Shown piece by piece: positions 1,309-64,000 of a DNA stretch of 64,000 nt; the first letter of the stretch is position 1; the number at the start of each line of letters is the position of its first letter. The notes under the pieces are model-generated. The model did not search any database. It was given only the letters and a program-made list of their open reading frames with translations, and was not told the DNA's origin. The translations under genes were made by a program, and so were the position numbers. The stretch lies in the IMG/VR virus record IMGVR_UViG_2721755676_000001; one strand, given 5' to 3'. This DNA comes from a virus (lineage: Duplodnaviria > Heunggongvirae > Uroviricota > Caudoviricetes).

Positions 1309-1363
1309 ACGCTACAAATCCTTCGGCATGAATAAATAAAGGCCATAAGTTGTGGCCTTAAAT

Positions 1364-1416
1364 AAATTGTTTTCTATCTTTTCTTATTTGTGAAAATAAC
1401 CACAACTAGAAAACAA
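1364..1416 (+). promoter_or_regulatory. class I promoter/operator unit
   Basis: TTGTTTTCT half-site, TGtGAAAAT extended -10-like (1389-1397), AGAAAACAA half-site 10 nt downstream; same architecture and near-identical sequence to units at 4982-5046 and 8915-8955. Confidence 0.45.
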
Positions 1417-1606: not shown

Positions 1607-2707
1607 TCACACTGCGCGGAATGCGATTTCGCCAGGTATTACTTCACCTTGCCAATACATTTGGGCAGCAACGCGATCTGCGAGGTCACGATAAATAGCC
1701 GTAAATTCACTATCTGGACGACTAATAACGGTTGGTGTTCCGTTATCCAGATCTTCACGAAGAGAGATATGAAGTGGCATTTGGCCTAACAACTGCGTGT
1801 TGTATTTCTCGGCCAGTTTCTGTGCGCCACCGGTGCCAAAAATTGGCTCGTGATGACCGCAGTTACTGCAAATATGCACACTCATGTTTTCAACGATACC
1901 CAGTACCGGCACTTCGACTTTTTCGAACATCACAATGCCTTTCTTCGCATCGATCAGCGCGATGTCTTGCGGCGTAGTTACCACAACCGCACCAGTTACA
2001 GGAATGTTCTGCGCCAGCGTCAATTGAATATCACCAGTGCCCGGTGGCATATCGAGAACGAGATAGTCCAGATCAGGCCACAGTGTTTCCTGCAACATCT
2101 GCATCAGCGCCTTGCTGGCCATCGGTCCACGCCACACCATTGCATTGTCGTCGGTGACCAGATAACCAATAGAGTTGGTTGCCAGGCCATGAGACATGAT
2201 AGGTGCCATGTGAGTACCGTCCGGTGAGGTTGGACGTTGGTTTTCCGCGCCCAGCATGGTTGGAATTGATGGACCATAGATATCGGCATCCAAAATACCA
2301 ACTTTCGCACCTTCAGCAGCCAACGCCAGTGCCAGGTTTACCGCCGTGGAGGATTTACCCACGCCGCCCTTGCCTGAGCTGACGGCGATAATGTTCTTAA
2401 CGCCATTAATGCCTGGTTGGTTTTTGACGCGCTTAAGCGTGGCAATGTTGTACGACAGCTTCCAGTCAATAGCCTTTGCGCCAGTGATACGGAGCAGATC
2501 ACCACTACATTGCTCTTTCAGGTCTTCAAAAGGCTTATTCCACACGAAAGGCATGATTAGTTCGACATGCAGTGTGTCATCCATCAACGCAACATGGTGT
2601 AACGCTTTAAGCGTAGTCAGGTTGTGTTTCAGGGTTGGGTGCTGAAAATTAGCCAGCGTACCGGCTACCATTGCTCTCAGGGCATCCGGCGATTTGGACT
2701 CGCTCAT
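1607..2707 (-). CDS. apbC: iron-sulfur cluster carrier ATPase Mrp/ApbC
   Basis: 366 aa; P-loop [11 protein letters not shown]-terminal CSNCGHH; near-identical to enterobacterial Mrp as recalled. Confidence 0.95.
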
Positions 2708-2864
2708 CCCGTCTCCTTTATTTTAATTTGCGCAATTGTCGCCTTGTAGTGTACTCCAGCTACGACATTTAATCATTTATGAGAAATGCTGTTATCACAT
2801 GGCAGACATAAGGCCATTTTGTTACTATCAAGCCCCTTTTCACTACAAAGAAGTAATGCCTACT

Positions 2865-4898
2865 ATGACCCAAGTCGCGAAGAAAATTCTGGTGACGTGC
2901 GCGCTGCCGTACGCTAACGGCTCAATCCACCTCGGCCATATGCTGGAGCACATCCAGGCTGATGTCTGGGTTCGTTACCAGCGAATGCGCGGCCACGAGG
3001 TTAATTTCATCTGTGCCGACGATGCCCACGGTACGCCAATCATGCTGAAAGCACAGCAGCTTGGTATCACACCGGAACAGATGATTGGCGAAATGAGTCA
3101 GGAACATCAGACTGATTTCGCAGGCTTTAACATCAGCTATGACAACTATCACTCGACGCACAGCGAAGAGAACCGTCAGTTGTCCGAGCTTATCTATACT
3201 CGCCTGAAAGAGAACGGTTTTATTAAAAACCGCACCATCTCTCAGCTGTACGACCCGGAAAAAGGCATGTTCCTGCCGGACCGTTTTGTAAAAGGCACAT
3301 GCCCGAAATGTAAAGCGCCGGATCAATACGGCGATAACTGTGAAGTCTGCGGCGCGACATACAGCCCGACGGAACTGATCGAGCCGAAATCAGTGGTTTC
3401 TGGCGCTACACCGGTAATGCGTGATTCCGAACACTTCTTCTTTGATCTGCCTTCTTTCAGCGAAATGTTGCAGGCATGGACCCGCAGCGGTGCGTTGCAG
3501 GAGCAGGTGGCAAACAAAATGCAGGAGTGGTTTGAATCTGGCCTGCAACAGTGGGATATCTCCCGTGACGCACCTTACTTCGGTTTTGAAATTCCGAACG
3601 CACCGGGCAAATACTTCTACGTCTGGCTGGACGCGCCGATTGGCTACATGGGTTCCTTCAAGAATCTGTGCGACAAACGCGGCGACACTACCAGCTTCGA
3701 CGAATACTGGAAGAAAGACTCCACCGCCGAGCTGTACCACTTCATCGGCAAAGATATCGTTTACTTCCACAGCCTGTTCTGGCCTGCCATGCTGGAAGGC
3801 AGCAACTTCCGCAAGCCGACCAACCTGTTTGTTCACGGCTATGTGACGGTGAACGGCGCGAAGATGTCCAAGTCTCGCGGCACCTTTATTAAAGCCAGCA
3901 CCTGGCTGAATCATTTTGACGCCGACAGCCTGCGTTACTACTACACTGCGAAACTCTCTTCGCGCATTGATGATATCGATCTCAACCTGGAAGATTTCGT
4001 TCAGCGTGTGAATGCCGATATCGTTAACAAAGTGGTTAACCTGGCCTCCCGTAATGCAGGCTTTATCAACAAGCGTTTTGACGGCGTGCTGGCAAGCGAA
4101 CTGGCTGACCCGCAACTGTACAAAACCTTTACTGATGCCGCTGAAGTGATTGGCGAAGCATGGGAAAGCCGCGAATTTGGCAAAGCTATCCGTGAAATCA
4201 TGGCACTGGCTGACCTGGCTAACCGCTATGTTGATGAACAGGCTCCGTGGGTGGTGGCAAAGCAGGAAGGACGCGATGCCGATCTGCAGGCGATTTGCTC
4301 TATGGGCATTAACCTGTTCCGCGTGCTGATGACGTACCTGAAACCGGTACTGCCGAAACTGACTGAACGTGCAGAAGCATTCCTGAATACAGAACTGACC
4401 TGGGATGGTATCCAGCAACCGCTGCTGGGCCATAAAGTGAATCCGTTCAAGGCACTGTATAACCGCATCGATATGAAGCAGGTTGAAGCACTGGTGGAAG
4501 CATCCAAAGAAGAAGTGAAAGCCACAGCCGCACCGGTAACTGGCCCACTGGCTGACGACCCGATTCAGGAAACTATCACCTTTGACGACTTCGCCAAAGT
4601 TGACCTGCGCGTGGCGCTGATTGAAAACGCAGAGTTTGTAGAAGGTTCTGACAAACTGCTTCGCCTGACGCTGGATCTCGGTGGTGAAAAGCGTAATGTC
4701 TTCTCAGGCATCCGTTCCGCTTATCCAGATCCACAGGCACTGATTGGTCGTCACACCATTATGGTGGCTAACCTGGCACCACGTAAAATGCGCTTCGGTA
4801 TCTCTGAAGGCATGGTGATGGCTGCTGGCCCCGGCGGGAAAGATATCTTCCTGTTAAGCCCGGATGCTGGTGCTAAACCTGGCCACCAGGTTAAGTAA
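2865..4898 (+). CDS. metG: methionyl-tRNA synthetase
   Basis: 677 aa from the ATG at 2865 ([29 protein letters not shown] motif, KMSKS, zinc knuckle CPKC..C..C, C-terminal tRNA-binding domain); divergent from mrp as in E. coli-type chromosomes. Confidence 0.95.
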
Positions 4899-4920
4899 TT
4901 AAACAACCTCTCTTCGCAAT

Positions 4921-4946
4921 GCCCGGCAACACGCCGGGCATTTTCA
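4921..4946 (+). terminator. intrinsic terminator downstream of metG
   Basis: GCCCGGC aacac GCCGGGC followed by ATTTTCAT. Confidence 0.7.
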
Positions 4947-4981
4947 TATAGACACAACCCCTTCTGACTTTAACAAACTCT

Positions 4982-5046
4982 AAAACAATTTGTTTTCTAC
5001 CTTTTGTTGATTGAGATAATAAGTCATATAAGAAAACAAATTGTTT
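4982..5046 (+). promoter_or_regulatory. class I promoter/operator unit (two palindromes flanking an extended -10)
   Basis: AAAACAATTTGTTTT (4982-4996), tTGaGATAAT (5011-5020), AGAAAACAAATTGTTT (5031-5046) directly before SD AGGAG. Confidence 0.5.
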
Positions 5047-5051
5047 AGGAG

Positions 5052-5300
5052 ATGAAGATGTTTGGAACAGCAAAAGAAATCATCGAGAAACTGAAAAACT
5101 ATCCAGAAGACGAACCCTTACTCATGGTTATGTGGCACAAAGAAGATATTGCTGAAGTAAGGACAGATCTCACTGATGAACAATGCGTACAGGTGATGCA
5201 AAAAATCAGACAATGCCATAACGCTGATGTCGGCGTTAATTGGGAGGTTATATCAACTACGGCGAATGAGTTGTTTCCGAACGGGGTGGTAAAATGCTGA
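5052..5300 (+). CDS. hypothetical small protein (82 aa; start may be the ATG at 5058)
   Basis: ORF immediately downstream of a class I unit and SD. Confidence 0.5.
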   Translation: MKMFGTAKEIIEKLKNYPEDEPLLMVMWHKEDIAEVRTDLTDEQCVQVMQKIRQCHNADVGVNWEVISTTANELFPNGVVKC

Positions 5301-7198: not shown

Positions 7199-7507
7199 TA
7201 CCGGCATAGCGAGAGGGAGAGTTGCGGCTACCCACCTGTAATGTGCGGGAAGAAGAGAGGCGCTCACGTAGGCGGACTTACTTACCGCTGGATTCCCTCT
7301 GAATGCCCAGCTACAGCGTAATTGTGCCAGACAGCCAACGGGTCACAATCGATTTCAGTAGGTTTTTGGGGAGAGGATTACTCTGCCACCAGCCACTTTC
7401 GGCCACTAAATCAGAATAATGTAAAAAGTGTACTCGGTACTGAACCTGAAAACTCACTGCCAAAACCACATTCACCGGAATAAAATCCTTTTTCGCCTGT
7501 GCGTTAT

Positions 7508-7542
7508 TGCGATAATAACACCATCAAGAAAACATGTTGTTT
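7508..7542 (+). promoter_or_regulatory. class I promoter/operator unit
   Basis: tTGcGATAAT (7507-7516), 10 nt spacer, AGAAAACATGTTGTTT (7527-7542), then SD AAGGA. Confidence 0.45.
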
Positions 7543-7554
7543 AAGGATTGCTTT

Positions 7555-8914: not shown

Positions 8915-8955
8915 CGATAACAATTTGTTTTCTGCCTTATCTGATTTGTGAAAAT
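8915..8955 (+). promoter_or_regulatory. class I promoter/operator unit
   Basis: AACAATTTGTTTTCT plus TGtGAAAAT; near-identical to the unit at 1364-1397. Confidence 0.45.
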
Positions 8956-8989
8956 GATTTCACTGAAGCAACTTAATAAGGAAACCATC

Positions 8990-12254: not shown

Positions 12255-12773
12255 TTAAAACGGAAGGATTCGTTCAACCCAATCGAAGAAAATAAGTATT
12301 TTTCTACCGTCTTCCAACTTAAGTGTGACTAGACAGGCGTCAACGCCATCTGACGTTCCCTCAATTTCGCGACCGTCTGCCATGTAGACCCTTATAGATT
12401 TGCCGTTTTGGTAAGCCTGACGACATATCTTAAAAAAGTCACGACGTGATGGCTGATTAACCATCTGTTCATTGTTTAGCGTTAGTCGACCTGTGAATGA
12501 AGTGTCAACCTCTTCTATGCCCGACTCAATTGTGCTAATGCGCTCAAGAGGGAGCCTTATACGATTTGTGTTGCTAAGCGGATCTGGTGTGAGGTTCAGC
12601 TTATTTCTTGCGCTCAATAGCCCGTAGACATACATGCAAAATACTTGGCCGTCTTCGAGAGTGACTCTTACAGGAAATTTTGCACTCCGCCAGAAGAGCA
12701 AGGTGCGCTCAGCATGTTCGTAGTCTCGCGGCCAGACTTCAGCCGGTATGCCGTAGGTGATGTCTTTAACCAT
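12255..12773 (-). CDS. hypothetical protein (172 aa), AT-rich
   Basis: Isolated minus-strand ORF with downstream hairpin AACCGG..CCGGTT. Confidence 0.5.
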   Translation of the reverse strand: MVKDITYGIPAEVWPRDYEHAERTLLFWRSAKFPVRVTLEDGQVFCMYVYGLLSARNKLNLTPDPLSNTNRIRLPLERISTIESGIEEVDTSFTGRLTLNNEQMVNQPSRRDFFKICRQAYQNGKSIRVYMADGREIEGTSDGVDACLVTLKLEDGRKILIFFDWVERILPF

Positions 12774-16534: not shown

Positions 16535-16616
16535 AAACCTCTTTCCTTAGTGCCTTTTGTATGTTATTTGGCTATTATAATAAGTAAGTGATTACTTAAT
16601 GGATTGTAGCAATAAA

Positions 16617-17297
16617 ATGGATGTAAAAATCACGATTTTGCAGGTTGATGTTGCCAACCTTCGCCCGAATACCTGGAACACCAATTCGGTTGGTGCGCAG
16701 AATTTCGAAAAACTGAAAGGTTCTATCGAAAAATTGGGCTTTTTTAAGCCAATTTTGGCTCGTGAACTTGAAGATGGATTTTTTGAAATCCTCGGCGGCG
16801 AACATCGCTGGCGTGCTGCTATTGAGCAAGGGATTTCAACGGTTCCGGTGCTTTCTGTGGGCAAAATTAGCGATGTCGTAGCTAAACAGATGTCACTGGT
16901 GGACAACGAGCGATACGGTGAAGACGACCAAATCGCATTGCAACGCTTCATTGAAGAAATTCAGTCAGAACTTGACTATCAACTGTCTGAAATCGCTCCG
17001 TATGACGACGAAATCTCGATGGTTTTAGCAAAAGAGGCGGCAATCGACCTTGAAGCACTGGAGGCGTTGTCTCGTGGTAGTGATGAGCCTGTCGATACCG
17101 ACAAACGAGAGAAAACCGAACGTGTGGGTGCGGAACATCAGACCATGCGCTTCAAAGTAACTTTCGATGCGTCAGATCGTGTTGCAGAAACCATAAAAAA
17201 CATCATCAAAGAGCAGGCTATTAACACCGGTAATGAAATGGAGAACGCTGGTGAGGCTCTGGTGTGGCTGGTCGACTACTACAAGGAGCGTATGTAA
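16617..17297 (+). CDS. ParB/Srx-fold (ParB-like nuclease domain) protein 1
   Basis: GGEHRWRAA matches the ParB box II GERRxRAA pattern; class II palindrome TAAGTAAGTGATTACTTA overlaps the alternative 16599 start. Confidence 0.65.
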   Translation: MDVKITILQVDVANLRPNTWNTNSVGAQNFEKLKGSIEKLGFFKPILARELEDGFFEILGGEHRWRAAIEQGISTVPVLSVGKISDVVAKQMSLVDNERYGEDDQIALQRFIEEIQSELDYQLSEIAPYDDEISMVLAKEAAIDLEALEALSRGSDEPVDTDKREKTERVGAEHQTMRFKVTFDASDRVAETIKNIIKEQAINTGNEMENAGEALVWLVDYYKERM

Positions 17298-17965
17298 TGA
17301 CCAAAAAGTTTGAAATCGTATATCGCGACCCGGCAGATCTTATTCCCTATGAGATGAATGCCAAAAAGCATGATGAACAGCAGATCCGAGATCTAGCTGC
17401 AGCCATTAAAAAGCGCGGATTTGACCAGCCAATTACGGTCGATAAGAACGACGTAATTATTACTGGCCACGGCCGCCGTGAGGCTGCAATTTTTGCTGGA
17501 CTTGAGCGCGTACCGGTTATTGTTCGCGATGATCTCAGTGATGACGAGGTTCGTGCGAAGCGCCTTGAAGATAACCGACTTGCCAGCATTGATTACGATG
17601 CAATTAAGCTACAGAAAGAGCTTGAGTCGCTTGTTCTGGACGATATCGAGGTTTTCGGCTTTGAAGAGCGTGAGTTGAATGTTCTCGTTGGCAGTATGAC
17701 AGAAGAAATGGACACCGACTCGCTAGTTATCGATCTTGGCGAAGAAACTAAACGACAGAAGGATGAACACACCGAGATCAGTCGTGAAGTTGCAGCGGAA
17801 GAAGTACGTGTTGTCGACGTATTGGGCTTTAAAACGCTCCCTGCTGGCTCTGCCATTGTTGTTGGTGATTTGCTTGCCCACATGGAAGAAATGACGGGAG
17901 AAAGCGGGGTAGACGCATTTGTGGCATATGCGGAGAAGATCTCTTCCGGGGAGATGGCTGCATGA
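17297..17965 (+). CDS. ParB/Srx-fold (ParB-like nuclease domain) protein 2
   Basis: GHGRREAA motif in the N-terminal domain; TAATG stop-start overlap with the preceding gene. Confidence 0.65.
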   Translation: MTKKFEIVYRDPADLIPYEMNAKKHDEQQIRDLAAAIKKRGFDQPITVDKNDVIITGHGRREAAIFAGLERVPVIVRDDLSDDEVRAKRLEDNRLASIDYDAIKLQKELESLVLDDIEVFGFEERELNVLVGSMTEEMDTDSLVIDLGEETKRQKDEHTEISREVAAEEVRVVDVLGFKTLPAGSAIVVGDLLAHMEEMTGESGVDAFVAYAEKISSGEMAA

Positions 17966-18627: not shown

Positions 18628-19514
18628 CGGACATCATCATTAAACGCTACCGCCCTGAAGAGTTCCCGCGTCATCTGGACTTTCTGGAGCGAATGACTGT
18701 TACAAAGGGAACTGTAGAGGACTGGCACGCTCTTAAGTCGCTTCACTACAAAACAGACGGCAAACCTTTCGCGCCAACTTACTATCGCTGCGAACTTGAT
18801 GACCGTCTGGTGGGCGTCGTGGTTATGGCTTACCCGAAACTACTGCTGGCACCTCGCCACCGCATGTTTCCTAAGTTGAAACCAACCACTAATACCACCG
18901 TGGCTAACCAGTACTGGGGTCGGTACGTGAATAACAACTTTGCGGTGATCAGTCGCTCAGTTGTGGATACTCAGTATCGTGGCGTAGGCGTCTCTTATCG
19001 AATGATTAACCTGGTTAGCAGGATGCATGACCGGCCAATCATTGAGATCCAGTCCTCGATGAGCAAATACAATCCCTTCGCCATGAAAGCAGGGTTTAAG
19101 TTCATCCGCCCTGAGCGACCGAAGAGCTATGAAAGTGCACTGCGTGTATTCCAGCGCCATTTCCGTTCCGACCCGGGTGATAACGAGGCGATCGTCAAAG
19201 AGTTGTTCGCAATGAGCGAGTCTCGTCGTCGCCGTGCACTGCGTGATCTGGTGGCGGACTACCACAAGAACAGTTCCCTGGCAAAAGCTGGGCGGAATCG
19301 TGGCACGACGATTCAGGACATTGCCGACAGTCTGGTGGACGAGGCCAGCATTGTGAAGCTGCTCAAGGACATTCACAATCTGAGCTTTACGTCTCCGTTG
19401 TATGGTGTGTATCGAAACCCTGACTTTGGTCGTCGACTGCCTGACACGCTGCCACTGCTGGCATTCGACAAACAACCTTTGGATAAACCGTTAGAAATTG
19501 CTTTGCCGGCATAA
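18624..19514 (+). CDS. GNAT-like acetyltransferase-fold protein (296 aa)
   Basis: QYRGVG fits GNAT motif A (Q/R-x-x-G-x-G/A); start overlaps the upstream stop. Domain call is inference. Confidence 0.45.
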   Translation: MTDIIIKRYRPEEFPRHLDFLERMTVTKGTVEDWHALKSLHYKTDGKPFAPTYYRCELDDRLVGVVVMAYPKLLLAPRHRMFPKLKPTTNTTVANQYWGRYVNNNFAVISRSVVDTQYRGVGVSYRMINLVSRMHDRPIIEIQSSMSKYNPFAMKAGFKFIRPERPKSYESALRVFQRHFRSDPGDNEAIVKELFAMSESRRRRALRDLVADYHKNSSLAKAGRNRGTTIQDIADSLVDEASIVKLLKDIHNLSFTSPLYGVYRNPDFGRRLPDTLPLLAFDKQPLDKPLEIALPA

Positions 19515-19790: not shown

Positions 19791-19814
19791 TCGGTCTGGG
19801 AGCTTATTTAAAGA

Positions 19815-19869
19815 CCTGCTTCTGTATATATAAATAATAAGTAACTTATTAAATATATACGGAAGCAGG
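19815..19869. repeat. 55-bp near-perfect palindrome (copy A)
   Basis: CCTGCTTCTGTATATATAAATAATAAGT|AACTTATTAAATATATACGGAAGCAGG; second copy at 52829-52881; outer inverted repeat GGTCTGG/CCAGACC. Confidence 0.7.
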
Positions 19870-19905
19870 CTTCGTAAGACATGCCAGACCTAATTAAACA
19901 CCCCA

Positions 19906-49542: not shown

Positions 49543-49962
49543 ATGCTAAATTATCATGACAATACGCGTTCTATGCAGACGATCCGCACCAATACTGCGG
49601 TCATCGACAGCTTTCCTATGCGTATTCACAACAGTGAAGACGCAGTAGAAGTGCGACGTATGTTGTGCCGTGAATCAGCTAACCGCCAGCACTTCATCGT
49701 CACTTTTAAGAGCGATGTGGCGCGTGCCGAAAAGATCTCTAATTCTACGTCACTGGTTAAACCGTTGGCCGAGGTTGTCGCTAACGGTAAACGAACCTCT
49801 TTTGTTTTAGATGTTGCTGAACAATATCCTGACTTGAAGTGTTTAGATCGTGATATTTCTTCACGAATCAAACAAGTTGTAGAGTCTTTTATGAAGAAAT
49901 TCTGTAAAATCGATGATATGGAACCATCAACGGCACAGAATACTTCATGGCACCATCTCTAA
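49543..49962 (+). CDS. hypothetical protein (139 aa)
   Basis: ORF after a 220-bp hairpin-rich intergenic region. Confidence 0.45.
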   Translation: MLNYHDNTRSMQTIRTNTAVIDSFPMRIHNSEDAVEVRRMLCRESANRQHFIVTFKSDVARAEKISNSTSLVKPLAEVVANGKRTSFVLDVAEQYPDLKCLDRDISSRIKQVVESFMKKFCKIDDMEPSTAQNTSWHHL

Positions 49963-50720
49963 TTGGTCAGGCGAACAGATTAATCCCTGAAATAGAAGAC
50001 TACAGCAAGGTCTTGTCTGAAATGCCGAGAGCGACGAGAATTATCGCTCTCGGTGAGTTCTATTTTATCTCCCGAGGTTTCGATCTAATTCGATTTACCG
50101 AATACGAGCTTGTTGATTCGGCCTATGAACGCTGTATTGTTGGCGAGTGTCTTGAGTCATGTGATCCTGATTACCAAGAGCAGGAAGTTAAGCGACTCAA
50201 ACGTGCTGGTTACACACCTCTTGAGATAGGAGCAGAAATTGAATCCTACAAGTTGCATGTGGGGCAGCCAGTCCAAACAGTCTTCCGCGTGGCCTACTGC
50301 GAGTTTCCAATCAAGGATAAATCTGGAGTAAAAGTCAGCGCCAAGCAGATTAGAGGGGTTTTTACTCATGCTGATTATATGGGATTAGGCATCGCAAGTT
50401 TTGCTTACCTTTATCTCGTAGATAAGTATCAGTACTTGGTTTGCGATACGTTACAGACGGTAAAAGGCGCAACTCTTTGGGCTGTGAGTATGCGCAAACA
50501 TGGACTGGTCGAAATTTACGATACGAAGAACGAAAATTTTATAGAGGAATTGGGTGAGGATGCCTGTGGCGTAAGTGGTTTTATTCCGTGGGATATCGGT
50601 AAGTCTGACGGAGGCCAGATGCGAAGACGTGAAGAGTGGGGGACTAATAAAATCAATCTCACCCCAGGTGCTTGTACTCATATAGTGAACATTCTGACTA
50701 AACGATCTATGAATCAATAA
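49947..50720 (+). CDS. hypothetical protein (257 aa)
   Basis: Overlaps the preceding gene end; followed by a strong terminator. Confidence 0.45.
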   Translation: MAPSLIGQANRLIPEIEDYSKVLSEMPRATRIIALGEFYFISRGFDLIRFTEYELVDSAYERCIVGECLESCDPDYQEQEVKRLKRAGYTPLEIGAEIESYKLHVGQPVQTVFRVAYCEFPIKDKSGVKVSAKQIRGVFTHADYMGLGIASFAYLYLVDKYQYLVCDTLQTVKGATLWAVSMRKHGLVEIYDTKNENFIEELGEDACGVSGFIPWDIGKSDGGQMRRREEWGTNKINLTPGACTHIVNILTKRSMNQ

Positions 50721-50741
50721 ACCCGCTACGGCGGGTTTTTT
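50721..50741 (+). terminator. intrinsic terminator
   Basis: CCCGC tacg GCGGG followed by T6. Confidence 0.7.
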
Positions 50742-50810
50742 GTTATTAAGCCCCCCCTATGTACCTATCATTAAACCTTTACACCGCAGCCGTAGGCATT
50801 TAGGCTATAT

Positions 50811-50834
50811 CACATATAAGAAAACAAGTTGTTT
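50811..50834 (+). promoter_or_regulatory. class I operator upstream of parA (CATATAAGAAAACAAGTTGTTT)
   Basis: Same TATAAGAAAACAA junction as at 5025-5046. Confidence 0.45.
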
Positions 50835-50869
50835 CAGACGATAATTATATACGCAAAGGGAACTCTCCA

Positions 50870-51538
50870 ATGACCAAGATCTTTGTGGTTGGCGGCACAA
50901 AGGGCGGGCCTGGCAAATCCACCGTTGCCCAGCAAATTGCCGTTTGCCTGAAAGTCAAAAAGAAGAAGAAGGTTTATATTACCGATATAGATATTCAGCG
51001 CACGACAACGAGCTGGTGTGAAGACCGTCGACAGAACGAAGACCTTGAGCTGATTCCTTTTGCATACGTTCAGGATGACATCATTAAGCACCTAAAATCG
51101 CTTCAGGGTAGAGCTGAGTTTGTAGTGGTAGATGCTGGTGGCTTCGACTCCGAAATTCAGCGACAAGCGATGCTGATGGCTGACGTTATCATTATCCCGC
51201 TGCGTCCTAAGCGTCGTGATTTGAAATCTTTACGTGACATCGATCCTATTATCGACAATGTTCGCAATGTAAACGATAAAGTGAAGGTCCGCGCGGTCAT
51301 GAACCAGTGCCCGGCTTTGCCATCACAAGTGTCTCGCATTCTGGCGGCTAAAGAGATTGTTGAGACGTTTGGAATCGAGTCTGCGCCAGTCAATCTATAT
51401 AACCGCAACGTCTATGATGATGCGGAAGAGTCTGGTCGTTCTATCTTTGAAATGACCGGTAGCGAGCGCGACAAAAAGGCGGAAGCCGAGTTTGAAGAAT
51501 TTGTAGATTATCTGTTGAGTCTGGAGGAAGAAGAATAA
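50870..51538 (+). CDS. ParA-family partition ATPase (small, Type Ib-like)
   Basis: Deviant Walker A GGTKGGPGKST; 222 aa with no N-terminal HTH; acidic tail. Confidence 0.85.
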   Translation: MTKIFVVGGTKGGPGKSTVAQQIAVCLKVKKKKKVYITDIDIQRTTTSWCEDRRQNEDLELIPFAYVQDDIIKHLKSLQGRAEFVVVDAGGFDSEIQRQAMLMADVIIIPLRPKRRDLKSLRDIDPIIDNVRNVNDKVKVRAVMNQCPALPSQVSRILAAKEIVETFGIESAPVNLYNRNVYDDAEESGRSIFEMTGSERDKKAEAEFEEFVDYLLSLEEEE

Positions 51539-51897
51539 TGTCCATGAAAATGGGTGACCTAGCAAAGCGCAAAGAGCCTGATGCACCGGCTAAGAACACA
51601 ACTCCTTTGCGCCAACCAGTCAGACCACAGGGACGCCCGACTCGTGGCAAAGAGAAAATTAAAAGCCGCACAATGTCACTGGAGGACGAATACTTCGAAC
51701 TGCTGGAGATGATGAAGTTCATCCCTCGCTTCGAGAAGTTCACTCGTTCTGACGTGATTCGAGCAGCCATTTTCCATCTGGCAGAGAAGTCACCGCAGGA
51801 AATCGAGGACATCGTGAAATTGAATGAGGCGATCACCGCTGCCGATGTCACGATGCGTACCGATGAAATCAAACGAGAGTTGATGAAGAAAGGTTAA
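51538..51897 (+). CDS. putative ribbon-helix-helix centromere-binding partner (ParG-like)
   Basis: ATGA overlap with parA; basic disordered N-terminus and RHH-like KSRTMSLEDEYFELLEMM segment. Confidence 0.55.
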   Translation: MSMKMGDLAKRKEPDAPAKNTTPLRQPVRPQGRPTRGKEKIKSRTMSLEDEYFELLEMMKFIPRFEKFTRSDVIRAAIFHLAEKSPQEIEDIVKLNEAITAADVTMRTDEIKRELMKKG

Positions 51898-51902
51898 AAA
51901 TC

Positions 51903-51933
51903 ATGCATTGGCGCGTACATTGCGCCAATGCAT
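51903..51933 (-). terminator. terminator hairpin (12-bp perfect stem) between convergent genes
   Basis: ATGCATTGGCGC gtacatt GCGCCAATGCAT; T-run only on the minus-strand side. Confidence 0.6.
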
Positions 51934-51949
51934 AACTACAGTGTCAGCT

Positions 51950-52717
51950 TTATGCCGCGCTAACACTATGTTCAGTCCTAACCACCCCAACCTTCACAAA
52001 AGGGCTACCGTAGCTTGGTGGCTTCTTGATTAATTTGCCTACATACAGTTTTCTAATATGCTCATCGGCTATTCTGCCAACAAATTCATAACGTTTTGTG
52101 TCGGGGCCAAGAGCTATATCCCTTGTAAAGTACTGCTGAGAACCGGCTTTGACCCAGCATTCAATCTGATAAACTTCCATTATCAGCCCACCATATGTAG
52201 CGTAGGCATATTTGAGATTCTCGTCTCTTGGAACCTTTGCCCATACGCCACGCGTAGCTTCATATAATGCCAGAGCGGACATTCCTGACTTGTAGGTGCT
52301 GTTTAGCAGGAAGGCAAGACCGGCGTGCTCAGGAGCAATTTCAGTTTCCTCTTGCAGCACTAAGTGATGGTAGGCGTCCAGTGATATTCTGCCCATCATG
52401 GAACCACTTCCTCGTACCTTATTCGTAAGCTCTCCGACCCCCATAAGGTCGATGCATGTCGCCTCAACAAGTTTGGCTGTGGTTTCATCCATACCATGAC
52501 GAAGTATATCTATGCCTAATTTTTTATTAGCCAAAAGTTCTTTGATCCGCATGGATTTGGGAGAGTCATCGGGATACTTGATGTGATCGAGACAACGAGT
52601 CGATTTGCCTTTTCCTATGTAAAACGGTCTTTTCATCTTGTCTTCTGTATCATAGAGACAGTAAACATAGTATTTAGCCTTATCCAATGATCTCGCGTAT
52701 ACCGATAAATCGTCCAT
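51950..52717 (-). CDS. GIY-YIG nuclease-domain protein (255 aa)
   Basis: N-terminal YYVYCLYD...RPFYIGKGK motif; C-terminal ~150 aa of unknown type. Confidence 0.6.
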   Translation of the reverse strand: MDDLSVYARSLDKAKYYVYCLYDTEDKMKRPFYIGKGKSTRCLDHIKYPDDSPKSMRIKELLANKKLGIDILRHGMDETTAKLVEATCIDLMGVGELTNKVRGSGSMMGRISLDAYHHLVLQEETEIAPEHAGLAFLLNSTYKSGMSALALYEATRGVWAKVPRDENLKYAYATYGGLIMEVYQIECWVKAGSQQYFTRDIALGPDTKRYEFVGRIADEHIRKLYVGKLIKKPPSYGSPFVKVGVVRTEHSVSAA

Positions 52718-52828
52718 TATTGCATCTCTTTGCTACTGACTAATGCGTTCTATTTTACACATAAGTTTTTAATCAATTTAACAGGCTCAAAGTGTAGAGC
52801 TTCTGGGCGTCTAAGACGACAAGTTATG

Positions 52829-52881
52829 CCTGCTTCTGTATATAAATAATAAGTAACTTATTAAATATATACGGAAGCAGG
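52829..52881. repeat. 53-bp near-perfect palindrome (copy B)
   Basis: Same sequence as 19815-19869 minus 2 bp; lies in the divergent region before the replication module. Confidence 0.7.
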
Positions 52882-52988
52882 TCTTTTAAAAGACACCACC
52901 AGAACAACTCCCTTCCGTTTCCACTTCCAAAAACTGCCACCAGTCGCTATCATCCGCTCATTGTGATAAGTAAGTAACTACCAACTAG

Positions 52989-60526: not shown

Positions 60527-60601
60527 GATGGTGTAGCTCAGCGGTAGAGCAGTTGGCTGTTAACCAACTGGTCGGTGGTTCGAATCCACCCACCATCGCC
60601 A
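60527..60601 (+). tRNA. tRNA-Asn (anticodon GTT)
   Basis: Canonical cloverleaf with T-loop TTCGAAT and 3' CCA; sequence differs from chromosomal E. coli tRNA-Asn as recalled. Confidence 0.9.
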
Positions 60602-60606
60602 ATTTA

Positions 60607-60693
60607 GGGGAGTTAGTCCGTAGGGGCAGCGGAGTAGACTGTAAATCTACTGTCATGGCGACTCGGGTGGTTCGACTCCATCACTCCCCACCA
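60607..60693 (+). tRNA. tRNA-Tyr (anticodon GTA)
   Basis: Class II tRNA with long variable arm, anticodon loop CTGTAAA, 3' CCA. Confidence 0.85.
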
Positions 60694-60697
60694 AATT

Positions 60698-60773
60698 GCC
60701 GGTTTAGCTCAGTTGGTAGAGCGCCTGCCTTGTAAGCAGGATGTCAGCGGTTCGAGTCCGCTAACCGGCACCA
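60698..60773 (+). tRNA. tRNA-Thr (anticodon TGT)
   Basis: Perfect cloverleaf with anticodon loop CTTGTAA, T-loop TTCGAGT, 3' CCA. Confidence 0.9.
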
Positions 60774-60845
60774 ATACAACGATAAGATCATTACGGTTAA
60801 TCGTCGTTCATGTGCACAATGACTGGTCGAAAGGTAGTGATCTTA

Positions 60846-60995
60846 CCGTTGTGGTGGATTCGCAGACTGATGCGATAGCTTTCTTGGATGTTAGGGAAAT
60901 GCGGCCGCAAATCTTCCCTTTCGCGAGCGGTGATCGTCCGTAGTCCTAATTGGCTGCACCGTATGCCGGAGATTCAGTACCGGCCACCACAACGG
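60846..60995 (+). ncRNA. structured RNA-like element between tRNA-Thr and tRNA-Ser (function unknown)
   Basis: 12-bp closing stem CCGTTGTGGTGG/CCACCACAACGG around internal hairpins; ends 2 nt before tRNA-Ser; no canonical tRNA fold. Confidence 0.3.
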
Positions 60996-60997
60996 CC

Positions 60998-61084
60998 GGA
61001 GAGTAGGGAGCATGGTGCTCAAGCGGTCTTGAAAACCGTCCCATTGCGCAAGCGATGATGGTTCGATTCCATTACTCTCCGCCA
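60998..61084 (+). tRNA. tRNA-Ser (anticodon TGA)
   Basis: Class II tRNA with 3-bp D stem, long variable arm, anticodon loop CTTGAAA, 3' CCA. Confidence 0.85.
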
Positions 61085-63585: not shown

Positions 63586-63999
63586 ATGAAAAATAGCTTT
63601 GACAGAGCACGCGCTGCGGAGAACACCTCAAAAGAGGCGATAGAGTATCTCGAAAGAGCATCTCAAATGCAGGCCGTTATGATCTCCCAGGTCAGCAATG
63701 ACATGAGATTCTCGGACGCATTCATGTTATTCACTCGCTTATCTCTGCTGATAACCAGACGTCGGCCAGAGATCGCTGTTCATTGTATTTTGATACATGT
63801 TTTGCCGCACATTGCCGATGTAAAAGTAAGTGACATTAATAGGTTCATGGTGAACCAACTGGTCAACCCACTAATACTGGATGGCAAAATTGTTATGGGC
63901 CGCCGCGTTTTCTCTCTGATGAAGCAGTTCCTTAGCTGGTGCGCCTTCCAGGGGATGATAGACGTGTCACCGTTAAACGATATGTCACTAAACAAAGTT
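63586..63999 (+). CDS. tyrosine recombinase/integrase-like protein, N-terminal part (truncated by window end)
   Basis: Frame open from ATG 63586 to window end; segment VKVSDINRFMVNQLV...GRRVFSLMKQFLSWCAFQGMIDVSPLND resembles the core-binding region of P4-type integrases; catalytic domain not in window. Confidence 0.4.
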   Translation, partial: MKNSFDRARAAENTSKEAIEYLERASQMQAVMISQVSNDMRFSDAFMLFTRLSLLITRRRPEIAVHCILIHVLPHIADVKVSDINRFMVNQLVNPLILDGKIVMGRRVFSLMKQFLSWCAFQGMIDVSPLNDMSLNKV

Positions 64000-64000
64000 G

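What the first reader, a model, noticed from the sequence alone, without database searches (positions are those of the whole stretch)
50811..51933. Plasmid-type partition module (ParA with small RHH partner) in a tailed-phage genome with tRNAs and a recombinase-like gene
A small ParA (deviant Walker A GGTKGGPGKST, no N-terminal HTH) is translationally coupled to a basic RHH-like protein, the Type Ib partition architecture. Together with a DnaB-like helicase/primase/ligase module and a tyrosine-recombinase-like ORF, this suggests the element can persist as a low-copy plasmid (phage-plasmid lifestyle) rather than only as an integrated prophage. The centromere is not identifiable; the class I operator and the 55-bp palindromes are candidates.
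Basis: partly seen in the sequence, partly recalled or inferred. Interest (0 to 1): 0.5.

Follow-up and report, generated by a model that had tools for sequence, protein, structure and literature searches.

The report
Phage-plasmid partition operon: ParA plus partner
This is the two-gene DNA-segregation (partition) operon of a well-known family of E. coli viruses that live as free plasmids (SSU5/pHCM2/pECOH89-like); the lifestyle is already established, and the only fresh point is that the small second gene, unnamed or mis-named in databases, is probably the missing DNA-binding partner of ParA.

Summary
A 222-aa ParA (50870-51538, Walker A GGTKGGPGKST, no N-terminal extension) is followed, with a TAATG overlap, by a 119-aa protein (51538-51897) with a very basic N-terminal half.

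The window is an SSU5-supergroup phage-plasmid, 98-99% identical to Escherichia phages PhiR41_1 and CMS-2020a and to about 110-kb plasmids such as pECOH89. The module occurs in 263 of 5,426 complete E. coli genomes. All 264 copies are on plasmids and none is on a chromosome, so the phage-plasmid reading is right but already published.

ParA is closest to ParF of TP228 (type Ib). The partner belongs to a tiny family (18 representative clusters in 1.84 billion proteins). In every locus examined it sits directly after a small ParA, down to 26% identity. Its ribbon-helix-helix fold is only weakly supported.

No repeat-array centromere exists. The 95 bp upstream is more conserved than parA itself. 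It carries one copy of a genome-wide palindromic operator (class I, 14 copies in the window) at the predicted transcription start. Comparative tests lean against that operator being the partner's site, so the centromere remains unidentified.

Verdict: an ordinary, unannotated member of a known kind, of low to moderate interest.

The parts
50719..50738 (+). Intrinsic terminator of the upstream, variable gene (49947-50720). It insulates the par promoter from read-through.
   Evidence: Terminator scan: 8-bp GC-rich stem followed by a T-run. It lies upstream of 50763, where homology with relatives that carry different upstream genes begins.
50763..50869 (+). Conserved non-coding leader of the par operon. 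It holds the promoter, the operator and the RBS, and is the most likely place for the partner's own binding site or centromere (inferred).
   Evidence: Homology with 726 plasmid records starts here whatever gene lies upstream. The 95 bp before the ATG are 84-94% identical to Salmonella, Citrobacter, Cronobacter and Klebsiella relatives, against 77-85% for parA coding DNA.
50777..50805 (+). Putative sigma-70 promoter: TTTACA, 17 nt, TAGGCT.
   Evidence: Read from alignment A2. Both hexamers and the 17-nt spacing are kept in close relatives. An equivalent TTGTCA-17-TAGGCT is found in K. quasipneumoniae pKqq_SB1124_3, and TTTACA-17-TAGGCT/TAGTAT in metagenomic loci L017 and L014. The simple consensus scan did not call it, so it is inferred.
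50820..50836 (.). Class I palindromic operator (GAAAACAAGTTGTTTCA) at about +3 to +24 of the predicted transcript. It is one of 14 copies in the window.
   Evidence: 14 matches against 0.9 expected by chance. This copy is invariant in all Enterobacteriaceae relatives, even where the rest of the leader is unalignable. In the copies that precede genes it lies 9-12 nt after a -10-like hexamer.
50870..51538 (+). parA: small deviant-Walker-A partition ATPase, 222 aa, ParF-like (type Ib).
   Evidence: KGGPGKST motif. Pfam MipZ, AAA_31 and CbiA above threshold. NCBIfam ParA_partition 1.9e-33, below the equivalog cutoff. PHROG 164 'ParA-like partition protein' 4e-51. Best solved relatives are ParF of TP228 and chain 5u1g, deposited as 'ParA', both at 1.2e-10 with Walker A, A' and B aligned for ParF.
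51538..51897 (+). Partner gene (119 aa; conserved start probably 51544): proposed centromere-binding and ParA-activating protein. Layout: N-terminal MGDLAKR peptide, basic arm, probable RHH core (about residues 41-85), C-terminal helices.
   Evidence: TAATG overlap. It lies directly downstream of a small ParA in every locus examined, down to 26-31% identity. Conserved blocks are shown. Weak RHH signals: NCBIfam aCcr1 family in 9 of 13 members at about 1e-4; Pfam RHH_1 in 2 of 13. Predicted helices at 48-59, 70-82, 86-97 and 101-118.
51903..51933 (-). Hairpin terminator of the convergent PD-T4-3 (GIY-YIG) defence gene. It may also stop par transcription, but it is not a conserved part of the par module.
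   Evidence: 12-bp perfect inverted repeat. As RNA on the minus strand it forms a 16-bp stem (-25.1 kcal/mol, z = -4.9) followed by a U-run. In the relatives whose annotation was inspected and that lack the GIY-YIG gene (SSU5, Cyrano, Citrobacter, Klebsiella, Cronobacter), the match ends at or near the partner stop at 51897.

Best explanation
This is the plasmid-partition operon of an SSU5-supergroup phage-plasmid, built on the type Ib (ParF/ParG-like) plan.

Shown:
- parA encodes a small deviant-Walker-A ATPase without a DNA-binding N-terminal domain.
- It is co-transcribed and translationally coupled with a 119-aa protein that always accompanies it.
- The pair, with about 107 bp of leader, moves as one conserved cassette between variable accessory and defence genes.
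- The cassette is found only on plasmids about 110 kb long and on their phage forms.

Inferred:
1. In the plasmid-prophage state the partner dimerises and binds specific DNA through a ribbon-helix-helix-like core (about residues 41-85), helped by the basic arm (residues 24-44).
2. The bound site is most likely within the unusually conserved leader, which would also give autoregulation.
3. The partner's invariant N-terminal peptide (MGDLAKR) contacts ATP-bound, nucleoid-associated ParA dimers and stimulates ATP hydrolysis.
4. The plasmid copies are then pulled apart along the nucleoid by a diffusion-ratchet or 'Venus flytrap' mechanism, as for ParF/ParG.
5. The promoter carries a class I operator at its transcription start. 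Par expression is therefore also wired into the element-wide regulon that controls early, packaging and replication genes through an unidentified regulator.

Sub-probabilities: partition function about 0.8; the partner is the centromere-binding and ParA-activating protein about 0.7; RHH fold about 0.55; centromere within 50763-50869 about 0.4.
For: - ParA identity and type.
- Strict ParA-partner adjacency across Escherichia, Salmonella, Citrobacter, Cronobacter, Klebsiella, Moellerella and metagenomic relatives, down to 26% partner identity.
- Cassette boundaries at about 50763 and 51897, with different flanking genes on each side (KacT/GNAT toxin-antitoxin pair, HEPN, PD-T4-3, DUF2971, Abi_2).
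- Leader more conserved than coding DNA.
- Extrachromosomal state: 736-796 PLSDB plasmid records, mostly non-mobilizable and about 110 kb; 264 of 264 E. coli occurrences on plasmids.
- No other ParA/ParB partition pair is annotated in the rest of pECOH89. There are no paralogues of either protein in the window or in the fetched pECOH89 segments.
- pMT1, a relative that lacks this cassette, carries a P1-type ParA/ParB pair instead. That fits functional replacement.
- Partner architecture (conserved N-terminal L-x-K peptide, basic arm, SRTxSxE strand-like block, TRSDVIRAA helix N-cap).
- Weak RHH hits. hhalign places the blocks in the RHH register.
Against: - No experiment on this module was found in the searchable literature.
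- There is no array of direct or inverted repeats next to the operon of the kind seen in parH or the omega heptads.
- ParA scores below the NCBIfam ParA_partition equivalog cutoff (115.7 against 180).
- An operator at the transcription start that is shared with lytic-type genes could mean the operon is repressed in lysogeny. That would sit awkwardly with a maintenance role.
Confidence: 0.75

Rival explanations
1. Omega-like or N15-like dual system. The partner is itself the protein that binds the class I operators (about 20 per genome). It would then act both as a global repressor of early, packaging and replication promoters and as the centromere-binding protein, and the centromere would be dispersed over the genome.
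For: - The class I palindrome is the only element of the par leader kept in all Enterobacteriaceae variants. This includes the two Klebsiella lineages whose leaders are otherwise unalignable, while the partner's putative DNA-reading block (KSRTMSxEDE) is identical.
- L014, whose partner is 31% identical, still has class I-like sites at both the parA and dnaB promoters.
- Type Ib centromere-binding proteins normally repress their own promoter, and this operator lies at the transcription start.
- Precedents recalled from the literature: omega of pSM19035 uses several promoter regions as centromeres (PMC9499535), and N15 has a Sop system that affects late-gene expression (cited in PMC11652158).
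Against: - pMT1 has no ParA or partner homologue (tblastn) yet keeps 6-7 class I sites at homologous promoters, plus 12 class II sites. Caveat: from memory, pMT1 is very close to pHCM2, so these could be recent relics.
- Moellerella pW18-2-b keeps the partner with the same SRTxSxEDE block, but has no class I palindrome at its parA or dnaB promoters or elsewhere in 34.6 kb.
- L017, L013 and L012 also lack the palindrome at the par promoter.
- The motif's fixed position, 9-12 nt after -10 hexamers of many unrelated small genes, looks like a classical repressor regulon.
Confidence: 0.13
2. ParA works with the two ParB_N-domain proteins encoded at 16599-17962, as the published gene lists 'parA, parB' imply. 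The 119-aa protein would then be only a transcriptional regulator, or unrelated to segregation.
For: - Both proteins have a ParB N-terminal domain (3e-13 and 1.5e-8).
- They are annotated ParB in Cyrano and pJN2-26.
- They are used as 'parB' backbone markers in papers (PMC3999498, PMC4270462, 10.1101/2025.09.12.675607).
Against: - They lie 33 kb from parA, inside the block that leads into the terminase and portal genes.
- Pfam detects only the ParB_N domain in them.
- They are retained in pMT1, which has its own complete P1-type ParA/ParB pair and has lost the small ParA. They therefore behave as phage-backbone genes rather than as ParA's partner.
- ParA has no HTH domain, which is the type Ib hallmark that goes with an adjacent small partner.
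- The partner is strictly adjacent to ParA in every locus examined.
Confidence: 0.07
3. Not a partition system. The pair would be a toxin-antitoxin or defence module (the Cyrano record calls the partner 'RelE/ParE putative toxin'), or a MipZ-like regulator of host cell division (RefSeq often names this ParA 'division plane positioning ATPase MipZ').
For: - The Cyrano annotation.
- The RefSeq name MipZ on some copies, and Pfam MipZ as ParA's top hit.
- The cassette sits between defence and toxin-antitoxin islands.
Against: - No RelE or ParE hit for the partner or any of 13 family members in Pfam or NCBIfam.
- No significant PADLOC hit for either protein.
- The best full-length models for ParA are ParA_partition and PHROG 'ParA-like partition protein', and ParF is the best solved relative over the whole length.
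- MipZ matches only the N-terminal 130 residues.
- The cassette is core to the group while the flanking defence genes vary.
Confidence: 0.04

Closest known systems
TP228 ParF / ParG / parH (type Ib partition, E. coli multiresistance plasmid)
   Same: - A small (about 206-222 aa) deviant-Walker-A ATPase without an N-terminal HTH. ParF is the joint best solved relative of this ParA (1.2e-10, aligned over residues 9-199).
- A small downstream partner with an unstructured basic N-terminal tail followed by a short DNA-binding core.
- An operon with its regulatory DNA upstream.
- The partner's tail is expected to stimulate the ATPase. This property of ParG is taken from PMC7308502 and PMC3130281 and was not tested here.
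   Different: - The partner has no detectable sequence homology to ParG and no ParG or Omega_Repress Pfam hit.
- It is longer (119 against 76 aa), with two extra C-terminal helices.
- There is no parH-like array of tetramer boxes. The leader has a single 17-bp palindrome and two TAGGC repeats.
- The host replicon is a tailed phage-plasmid.
pSM19035 delta / omega / parS (type Ib, Firmicutes)
   Same: - Small ParA-like delta plus an RHH protein whose N-terminal tail activates the ATPase.
- Omega is also a global regulator, and its promoter-embedded sites double as centromeres (PMC9499535). This is the model for the 'novel case' below.
- From my recalled omega sequence, its N-terminus (GNLGAQKAKR) resembles MGDLAKRK here. 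This is a lead, not a test.
   Different: - No heptad repeats.
- No significant sequence similarity (hhalign against a small RHH set that included omega: E = 0.25).
- Different host phylum.
- Binding of the partner to multiple promoters is unproven and is disfavoured.
P1 ParA/ParB/parS, the homologous pMT1 system, and N15 SopA/SopB (partition systems of other phage-plasmids)
   Same: Same biological role: segregation of a low-copy plasmid prophage. pMT1 belongs to the same SSU5 supergroup and carries a P1-type ParA/ParB pair in place of this cassette (PMC7969092).
   Different: Those are type Ia systems: a large ParA with an HTH domain, a large HTH-type ParB (ParB/RepB/Spo0J family), and parS downstream or dispersed. 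Here ParA is 222 aa with no HTH domain, and the partner is a 119-aa protein unrelated to ParB.
SSU5 / pHCM2 / pECOH89 / pSLy3-type phage-plasmids (SSU5 supergroup)
   Same: The window is a member.
- 98-99% nucleotide identity to Escherichia phages PhiR41_1, CMS-2020a and Cyrano, and to plasmids such as CP056250.1 and pECOH89; 84% to SSU5.
- Same gene order: tail fibre, lysis, parA, partner, helicase, primase, ligase, tRNAs, integrase.
   Different: Nothing essential. This copy has a PD-T4-3 defence gene inserted after the par operon, and a particular pair of unknown genes before it.

Membership tests
ParA/MinD superfamily (deviant Walker A ATPases) | Deviant Walker A motif KGGxxK[ST] with the signature N-terminal lysine | tested here: met
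   Residues 11-18 are KGGPGKST. They align with KGGSGKTT of ParF.
ParA/MinD superfamily (deviant Walker A ATPases) | Family HMM matches above curated thresholds | tested here: met
   Pfam MipZ 52.1 bits (cutoff 20.7), AAA_31 52.2 (27), CbiA 31.9 (25.4), ParA/NUBPL 29.8 (27.1).
NCBIfam NF041546 'ParA family partition ATPase' (equivalog) | Whole-protein score at or above the curated cutoff of 180 bits | tested here: not met
   115.7 bits, E = 1.9e-33, covering profile positions 6-202 of 203. It is a clear relative but not an equivalog-level member.
Type Ib plasmid partition system | Small ParA (about 200-230 aa) lacking the N-terminal HTH autoregulatory domain | tested here: met
   222 aa, with Walker A starting at residue 8. 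No HTH family hit.
Type Ib plasmid partition system | Small partner gene immediately downstream in the same operon, co-inherited with parA | tested here: met
   TAATG overlap. The two genes are adjacent in every locus examined, including four remote metagenomic lineages and Moellerella.
Type Ib plasmid partition system | Partner is a sequence-specific DNA-binding protein, typically with a ribbon-helix-helix fold | tested here: inconclusive
Type Ib plasmid partition system | Centromere made of clustered short repeats adjacent to (usually upstream of) the operon | tested here: not met
   No repeat array in 50650-52050 or by Tandem Repeats Finder. There is only one 17-bp palindrome, which is a genome-wide operator, plus two TAGGC repeats. 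The leader is nevertheless under strong constraint.
Type Ib plasmid partition system | Stabilises a low-copy replicon, and the partner stimulates ParA ATPase | not testable with these tools
   Needs stability assays and biochemistry. The only indirect support is that the module is found exclusively on plasmids.
ParG (TP228) / omega repressor protein families | Sequence-family membership (Pfam ParG or Omega_Repress model, or a significant profile match) | tested here: not met
   No such Pfam hit for the window protein or any of 13 members, even at E up to 10. Profile-profile E = 0.25. No PDB sequence hit.
RelE/ParE toxins (annotation in the phage Cyrano record) | Match to RelE/ParE family models | tested here: not met
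   No RelE or ParE hit in Pfam, NCBIfam or PADLOC. The only toxin-antitoxin-related trace is one member's weak ParD antitoxin (RHH) hit at E = 0.12.
SSU5-supergroup phage-plasmids | High nucleotide identity and synteny with SSU5, pHCM2 or pECOH89-type elements, and occurrence as a circular plasmid of about 100-115 kb as well as a virion genome | tested here: met
   The group is defined in PMC7969092.

The most novel reading that the evidence does not exclude
The 119-aa partner is an omega-like dual-function protein. It would bind the class I palindromes (14 in this window, about 20 per genome) that sit on the transcription start sites of the early, packaging (terS), replication (dnaB) and par promoters. 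The phage-plasmid would then have a dispersed centromere that doubles as its lytic-gene operator set, and plasmid segregation would be physically coupled to maintenance of lysogeny. This would be a more extreme version of what N15 Sop does with its scattered centromeres.
Probability: 0.12. Interest if true: 0.6.

Novelty: new member of a known kind. Interest (0 to 1): 0.3.

Why it matters
SSU5-type phage-plasmids are common and clinically relevant.
- This par cassette is present in 4.8% of complete E. coli genomes and in about 800 PLSDB plasmids from Klebsiella, Escherichia, Enterobacter, Salmonella and other genera.
- pHCM2-like elements are reported in almost a fifth of S. Typhi (10.1101/2025.09.12.675607).
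- Members carry resistance genes, such as blaCTX-M-15 on pECOH89 (PMC3999498).

Their maintenance machinery has not been studied. Papers pair 'parA' with distant ParB_N-domain genes. The adjacent gene, the likely true partner, is left as 'hypothetical protein', truncated (SSU5, some RefSeq records), or called a toxin (Cyrano).

Recognising the operon as a type Ib-like system would:
- give a correct annotation for about 800 records;
- supply a candidate incompatibility and curing determinant;
- define a compact cassette (50763-51897) for testing how a phage-plasmid ties segregation to its regulatory circuit.

It does not change any general concept.

Tried and rejected

2. Sequence route to the RHH fold. 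PDB phmmer and hmmsearch gave only noise.

3. Remote-homologue route. A profile search of 1.84 billion representatives found only 18 clusters, all of the same family and none annotated.

4. Centromere by repeats. Neither repeat finder nor Tandem Repeats Finder found an array in or near the operon. A shared k-mer analysis of 12 par leaders recovered only the class I word.

5. Hairpin 51903-51933 as a parS-like palindrome. Rejected: it is the terminator of the inserted PD-T4-3 gene, and the match of the inspected relatives that lack that gene ends at or near 51897, before it.

6. The 366-aa 'MinD' gene (1610-2707) as a second partition ATPase. Rejected: it is an Mrp/ApbC Fe-S carrier (PF10609, 2e-102) next to a MetRS-like gene.

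7. ParB_N pair as ParA's partner. Disfavoured (see rival explanations).

8. Identifying the class I regulator. Ten proteins encoded beside class I sites had no informative Pfam hit. The FljA-like repressor (12255-12773) remains an untested candidate.

9. pMT1 as a natural partner-deletion test for the class I and II motifs. The motifs persist. The test is weak, however, because from memory pMT1 is very close to pHCM2, so relic sites would not yet have decayed. pMT1 is 79% identical to this window over 30 kb.

10. Literature. No paper in the searchable library describes the partner, the centromere or the operators of this group.
Full report
**1. What is at the coordinates**

The + strand carries an ORF at 50870-51538 (222 aa) beginning MTKIFVVGGTKGGPGKST, and a second ORF at 51538-51897 (119 aa).
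- The parA stop and the second gene's ATG overlap by one base: gaaTAATGtcc.
- Two more in-frame ATGs follow at 51544 and 51550.
- Most relatives start at the equivalent of 51544 (MKMGDLAK), 5-6 nt after the parA stop. Coupling is tight whichever start is used.

The first protein is a ParA-family ATPase.
- Pfam MipZ, AAA_31, CbiA and ParA/NUBPL all score above their gathering thresholds.
- NCBIfam ParA_partition gives 1.9e-33 over the full profile, but below the equivalog cutoff.
- PHROG 164 'ParA-like partition protein' gives 4e-51.

The second protein matches PHROG 5111 ('unknown function') end to end at 4.5e-80. It has no Pfam family.

It is basic overall (pI 9.6), but only in residues 1-45 (pI 11.4). 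The remainder is acidic.

**2. What the element is**

The 4.5 kb around the operon is 98-99% identical to Escherichia phages PhiR41_1, CMS-2020a and Cyrano, and 84% identical to Salmonella phage SSU5.

It matches 736 PLSDB plasmids, of which 702 are typed non-mobilizable; those listed are mostly about 105-115 kb. The first 25 kb of the window behaves the same way.

Gene order matches these records: tail fibre, holin/endolysin/spanin, variable genes, parA, partner, variable genes, a PHROG 2500 protein, DnaB-like helicase, primase, ligase, tRNAs, integrase.

This is the SSU5 supergroup of phage-plasmids (PMC7969092). pECOH89 and pHCM2 were recognised as phage-like plasmids years ago (PMC3999498, PMC4270462).

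Among 5,426 complete E. coli genomes, 263 carry the cassette. All 264 copies are on plasmid replicons and none is on a chromosome. The phage-plasmid lifestyle is real, but it is not new.

**3. ParA**

The protein has no room for an N-terminal HTH domain, because Walker A begins at residue 8.

Its best solved relatives are ParF of TP228, the type Ib paradigm, and chain 5u1g, deposited as 'ParA'. Both score 1.2e-10. ParF aligns over residues 9-199, with KGGPGKST opposite KGGSGKTT, DIDIQ opposite DTDPQ, and VVVDAGG opposite AIVDGAG.

MipZ matches only the N-terminal 130 residues. The RefSeq name 'division plane positioning ATPase MipZ' on some copies therefore comes from Pfam's top-scoring model, not from evidence of function.

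**4. The partner**

Family size:
- 25 sequences in 5.8 billion proteins.
- 18 representative clusters in 1.84 billion proteins, even with a profile search.
- By tblastn, present on 796 plasmids of Klebsiella, Escherichia, Enterobacter, Salmonella, Citrobacter, Cronobacter, Shigella and Moellerella.

In every locus examined it lies directly downstream of a small ParA, in the same neighbourhood. This holds for the remote metagenomic members P0030, P0032, P0035 and P0036 (26-40% identity) and for Moellerella pW18-2-b. Conservation of the gene pair over that distance is the strongest evidence that the two proteins work together.

Alignments show four conserved blocks:
- An N-terminal peptide M-G-D/G-L-A-K-K/R, in which L8 is invariant and K10 nearly so.
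- A variable linker followed by a basic arm, P-Q-G-R-P-T-R-G-K.
- The block I-K-S-R-T-M-S-x-E-D-E.
- F-T-R-S-D-V-I-R-A-A-I, followed by two less conserved helices.

This layout is what an RHH centromere-binding protein of the ParG/omega kind looks like: a flexible, ATPase-activating basic tail, then a beta-strand, helix 1, and an N-capped helix 2.

The fold evidence is weak.
- The RHH family aCcr1 (NCBIfam) is hit by 9 of 13 members at about 1e-4, below its cutoff. Pfam RHH_1 is hit by 2 of 13 at 0.005.

I rate RHH at about 0.55.

Annotation status:
- Cyrano's 'RelE/ParE putative toxin' has no support in any library.
- SSU5 and some RefSeq records call truncated versions of 96 or 72 aa, although the full-length frame is intact.

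**5. Boundaries and regulation**

Across hundreds of relatives, homology starts at about 50763 and stops at the partner stop codon at 51897, whatever lies on either side.
- Upstream neighbours include a KacT/GNAT toxin-antitoxin pair, a HEPN protein, or unknown genes.
- Downstream neighbours include a GIY-YIG gene, a DUF2971 protein or an Abi_2 protein.

In this window the downstream gene (51950-52717, minus strand) is the PD-T4-3 defence nuclease (PADLOC 1.3e-23). The perfect 12-bp inverted repeat at 51903-51933 is its terminator (-25.1 kcal/mol, z = -4.9, followed by a U-run on the minus strand). It is not a par element.

The leader holds TTTACA (50777), a 17-nt spacer, and TAGGCT (50800-50805). 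The same hexamers and spacing recur in distant relatives. The simple promoter scanner did not call this site, so it is an inference.

The 95 bp before the ATG are 84-94% identical to Salmonella, Citrobacter, Cronobacter and Klebsiella relatives, whose parA coding DNA is only 77-85% identical. Something more than a promoter is being conserved there.

**6. The class I operator and the centromere question**

The palindrome GAAAACAA-N-TTGTTTTC occurs 14 times in the window, against 0.9 expected by chance. About seven more copies lie in the rest of pECOH89.

In the copies that precede genes it sits 9-12 nt after a -10-like hexamer, which places it on the transcription start. It precedes many small early genes, the terS gene (19906 and 19931), dnaB (53748) and parA (50820-50836). 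At four promoters two copies about 51 bp apart bracket the promoter.

The parA copy is invariant even in two Klebsiella lineages whose leaders are otherwise unalignable.

Could this operator be the partner's site, and therefore a dispersed centromere? Three tests:
- pMT1 lacks ParA and the partner (tblastn finds nothing) and has a P1-type ParA/ParB pair instead. It nevertheless keeps 6-7 class I sites and 12 class II sites at homologous promoters.
- Moellerella pW18-2-b keeps the partner with the same SRTxSxEDE block. It has no class I palindrome at its parA or dnaB promoters, or elsewhere in 34.6 kb. It has only separated half-sites, AAGAAAAC and GTTTTCTT, 31 bp apart.
- L017, L013 and L012 also lack the palindrome, whereas L014 keeps it at both the parA and dnaB promoters.

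Together these lean against the partner being the class I binder. None is decisive. In particular, pMT1 is, from memory, a very recent relative of pHCM2, so relic sites would persist; it is 79% identical to this window over 30 kb.

No repeat array exists in or beside the operon. The centromere remains unidentified. My best guess, at about 0.4, is that it lies within the constrained leader at 50763-50869.

**7. Other ParA- and ParB-like genes**

The 366-aa 'MinD' of the Cyrano annotation (window 1610-2707, minus strand) is an Mrp/ApbC Fe-S carrier (PF10609, 2.4e-102). It lies next to a MetRS-like gene and is not a partition protein.

Two ParB_N-domain proteins (16599-17962) are what papers call 'parB'. 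They lie 33 kb from parA, in the block that runs into the terminase and portal genes. Pfam detects only the N-terminal domain. They are retained in pMT1 alongside its own ParA/ParB pair. They behave as phage-backbone genes.

The rest of pECOH89 encodes the RepB initiator with about 20 iterons (TATGCTGTCAGCGGT), DNA polymerase III alpha and the integrase. No further ParA or ParB is annotated there. Neither protein has a paralogue in the window or in the fetched pECOH89 segments.

**8. Mechanism (inferred)**

1. In the plasmid-prophage state the operon is transcribed from the leader promoter, under the class I regulon and probably under autoregulation.
2. The partner binds specific DNA as a dimer or higher oligomer.
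3. Its N-terminal peptide engages ATP-bound ParA dimers on the nucleoid and triggers ATP hydrolysis.
4. The resulting ParA gradient separates sister plasmids, as described for ParF/ParG (PMC7308502, PMC5389482).
5. The integrase, cut by the window end, could resolve dimers as Cre does for P1. That is an inference only.

**9. Verdict**

The element and its lifestyle are already known, and ParA is already annotated. What is not in the databases or the searchable literature is that the adjacent 119-aa gene is ParA's conserved partner. That makes this a type Ib-like system with an unrecognised centromere-binding protein family and no obvious centromere.

It is a new member of a known kind. It is useful for annotation and as an experimental handle on a very widespread group of plasmids, but it is not surprising. 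Interest: 0.3.

Noticed in passing
window 1357-1416, 4980-5048, 6347, 7476-7544, 8012, 8915-8974, 9680, 14945, 19906/19931, 50820, 53748: Class I operator family, AGAAAACAA-N-TTGTTT(T/A): 14 sites against 0.9 expected. In the copies that precede genes it lies 9-12 nt after a -10-like hexamer, i.e. on the transcription start of early genes, terS, parA and dnaB. Four promoters are bracketed by two copies about 51 bp apart. The binding protein is unknown; ten proteins encoded beside these sites had no informative Pfam hit. This resembles a P1 C1-style dispersed operator regulon, which no paper in the searchable library describes for this group.
   Followed up: partly
window 162, 16580, 19830-19856, 23378, 35365, 42281, 52842-52868, 56400, 59759 (also 47802, 52961, 62242): Second dispersed palindrome family (class II), ATAAGTAA-N4-TTACTTAT: 11 sites against 0.25 expected. 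It lies just upstream of the ParB_N, structural, replication and other genes. It is also conserved in pMT1 (12 sites) and in remote relatives. Its function is unknown; it could be a late or middle promoter, or an operator.
   Followed up: partly
window 19807-19889 and 52824-52898: Two copies (87% identical) of an imperfect palindrome about 55-60 bp long, with CCTGCTTCTGTATAT...ATATACGGAAGCAGG arms around a class II-like core. One copy lies before the terS/packaging operon. The other lies about 930 bp after the par operon, before the replication-gene operon. A copy also exists in pMT1 before its packaging genes. L014 has a much larger inverted repeat at the equivalent position.
   Followed up: partly
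window 51950-52717 (-): The convergent gene after the par operon is a PD-T4-3 anti-phage defence nuclease (GIY-YIG; PADLOC 1.3e-23; Pfam LEM-3_GIY-YIG). Both flanks of the par cassette are hot spots for variable toxin-antitoxin and defence genes in relatives: KacT/GNAT with a DUF1778 antitoxin, HEPN, ApeA-HEPN, Abi_2 and DUF2971.
   Followed up: partly
window 1610-2707 (-) and 2736-4898 (+): A divergent gene pair on the phage-plasmid: an Mrp/ApbC Fe-S cluster carrier (PF10609, 2.4e-102) and a 720-aa gene whose Cyrano and PhiR41_1 homologues are annotated as methionyl-tRNA synthetase. This mirrors the mrp-metG arrangement I recall for the E. coli chromosome. The Cyrano record labels the Mrp gene 'MinD', which could be mistaken for a second partition ATPase.
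   Followed up: partly
window 16599-17297 and 17264-17965 (+): Two consecutive ParB_N-domain proteins, followed by ABC-type ATPase genes and the terminase. The literature and screening schemes use them as 'parB' of SSU5-like plasmids. They are conserved in pMT1 beside its own P1-type ParA/ParB pair, so they look like phage-backbone genes rather than the partition partner.
   Followed up: partly
window 12255-12773 (-): A FljA-like 'repressor of phase-1 flagellin' protein (PF03614, 1.3e-68), conserved in SSU5, pJN2-26 and pMT1. It could be a host-manipulating factor, or a candidate for one of the dispersed-operator regulators. Not tested.
   Followed up: no
window 60527-61084 (+) and 63586-64000 (+): tRNA cluster (Asn-GTT, Tyr-GTA, Thr-TGT, Ser-TGA). 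The first 138 codons of the site-specific tyrosine integrase are cut by the window end; this stretch is 98.4% identical to the pECOH89 integrase gene region.
   Followed up: yes
L022 (Moellerella pW18-2-b) 18909-19225; L013 9170-9318: In the most remote par operons the class I palindrome is replaced by separated half-sites: AAGAAAAC, 31 bp, GTTTTCTT in L022, and GTTTTCTT, 7 bp, GAAAACAA in L013. L022 also has two direct ATAACAAGGC repeats just before the ATG. The GAAAAC word is therefore older than the palindrome arrangement.
   Followed up: no
L020 (pECOH89) 79-220 and 1316-1867, outside the window: The RepB initiator gene is flanked by about 20 copies of a 15-bp iteron (TATGCTGTCAGCGGT). About 5 lie upstream and about 15 downstream, an ori plus copy-control layout similar to that of P1. 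The replicon lies about 32 kb from the par operon.
   Followed up: no
L002 (SSU5) 4893-5183; L008 3383-3601; L003 (Cyrano) 3776-4135: Database annotation problems for the partner gene. It is truncated to 96 aa in SSU5 and to 72 aa in a RefSeq Klebsiella plasmid, although the full 119-121-aa frame is intact. It is named 'RelE/ParE putative toxin' in Cyrano without any supporting homology.
   Followed up: yes
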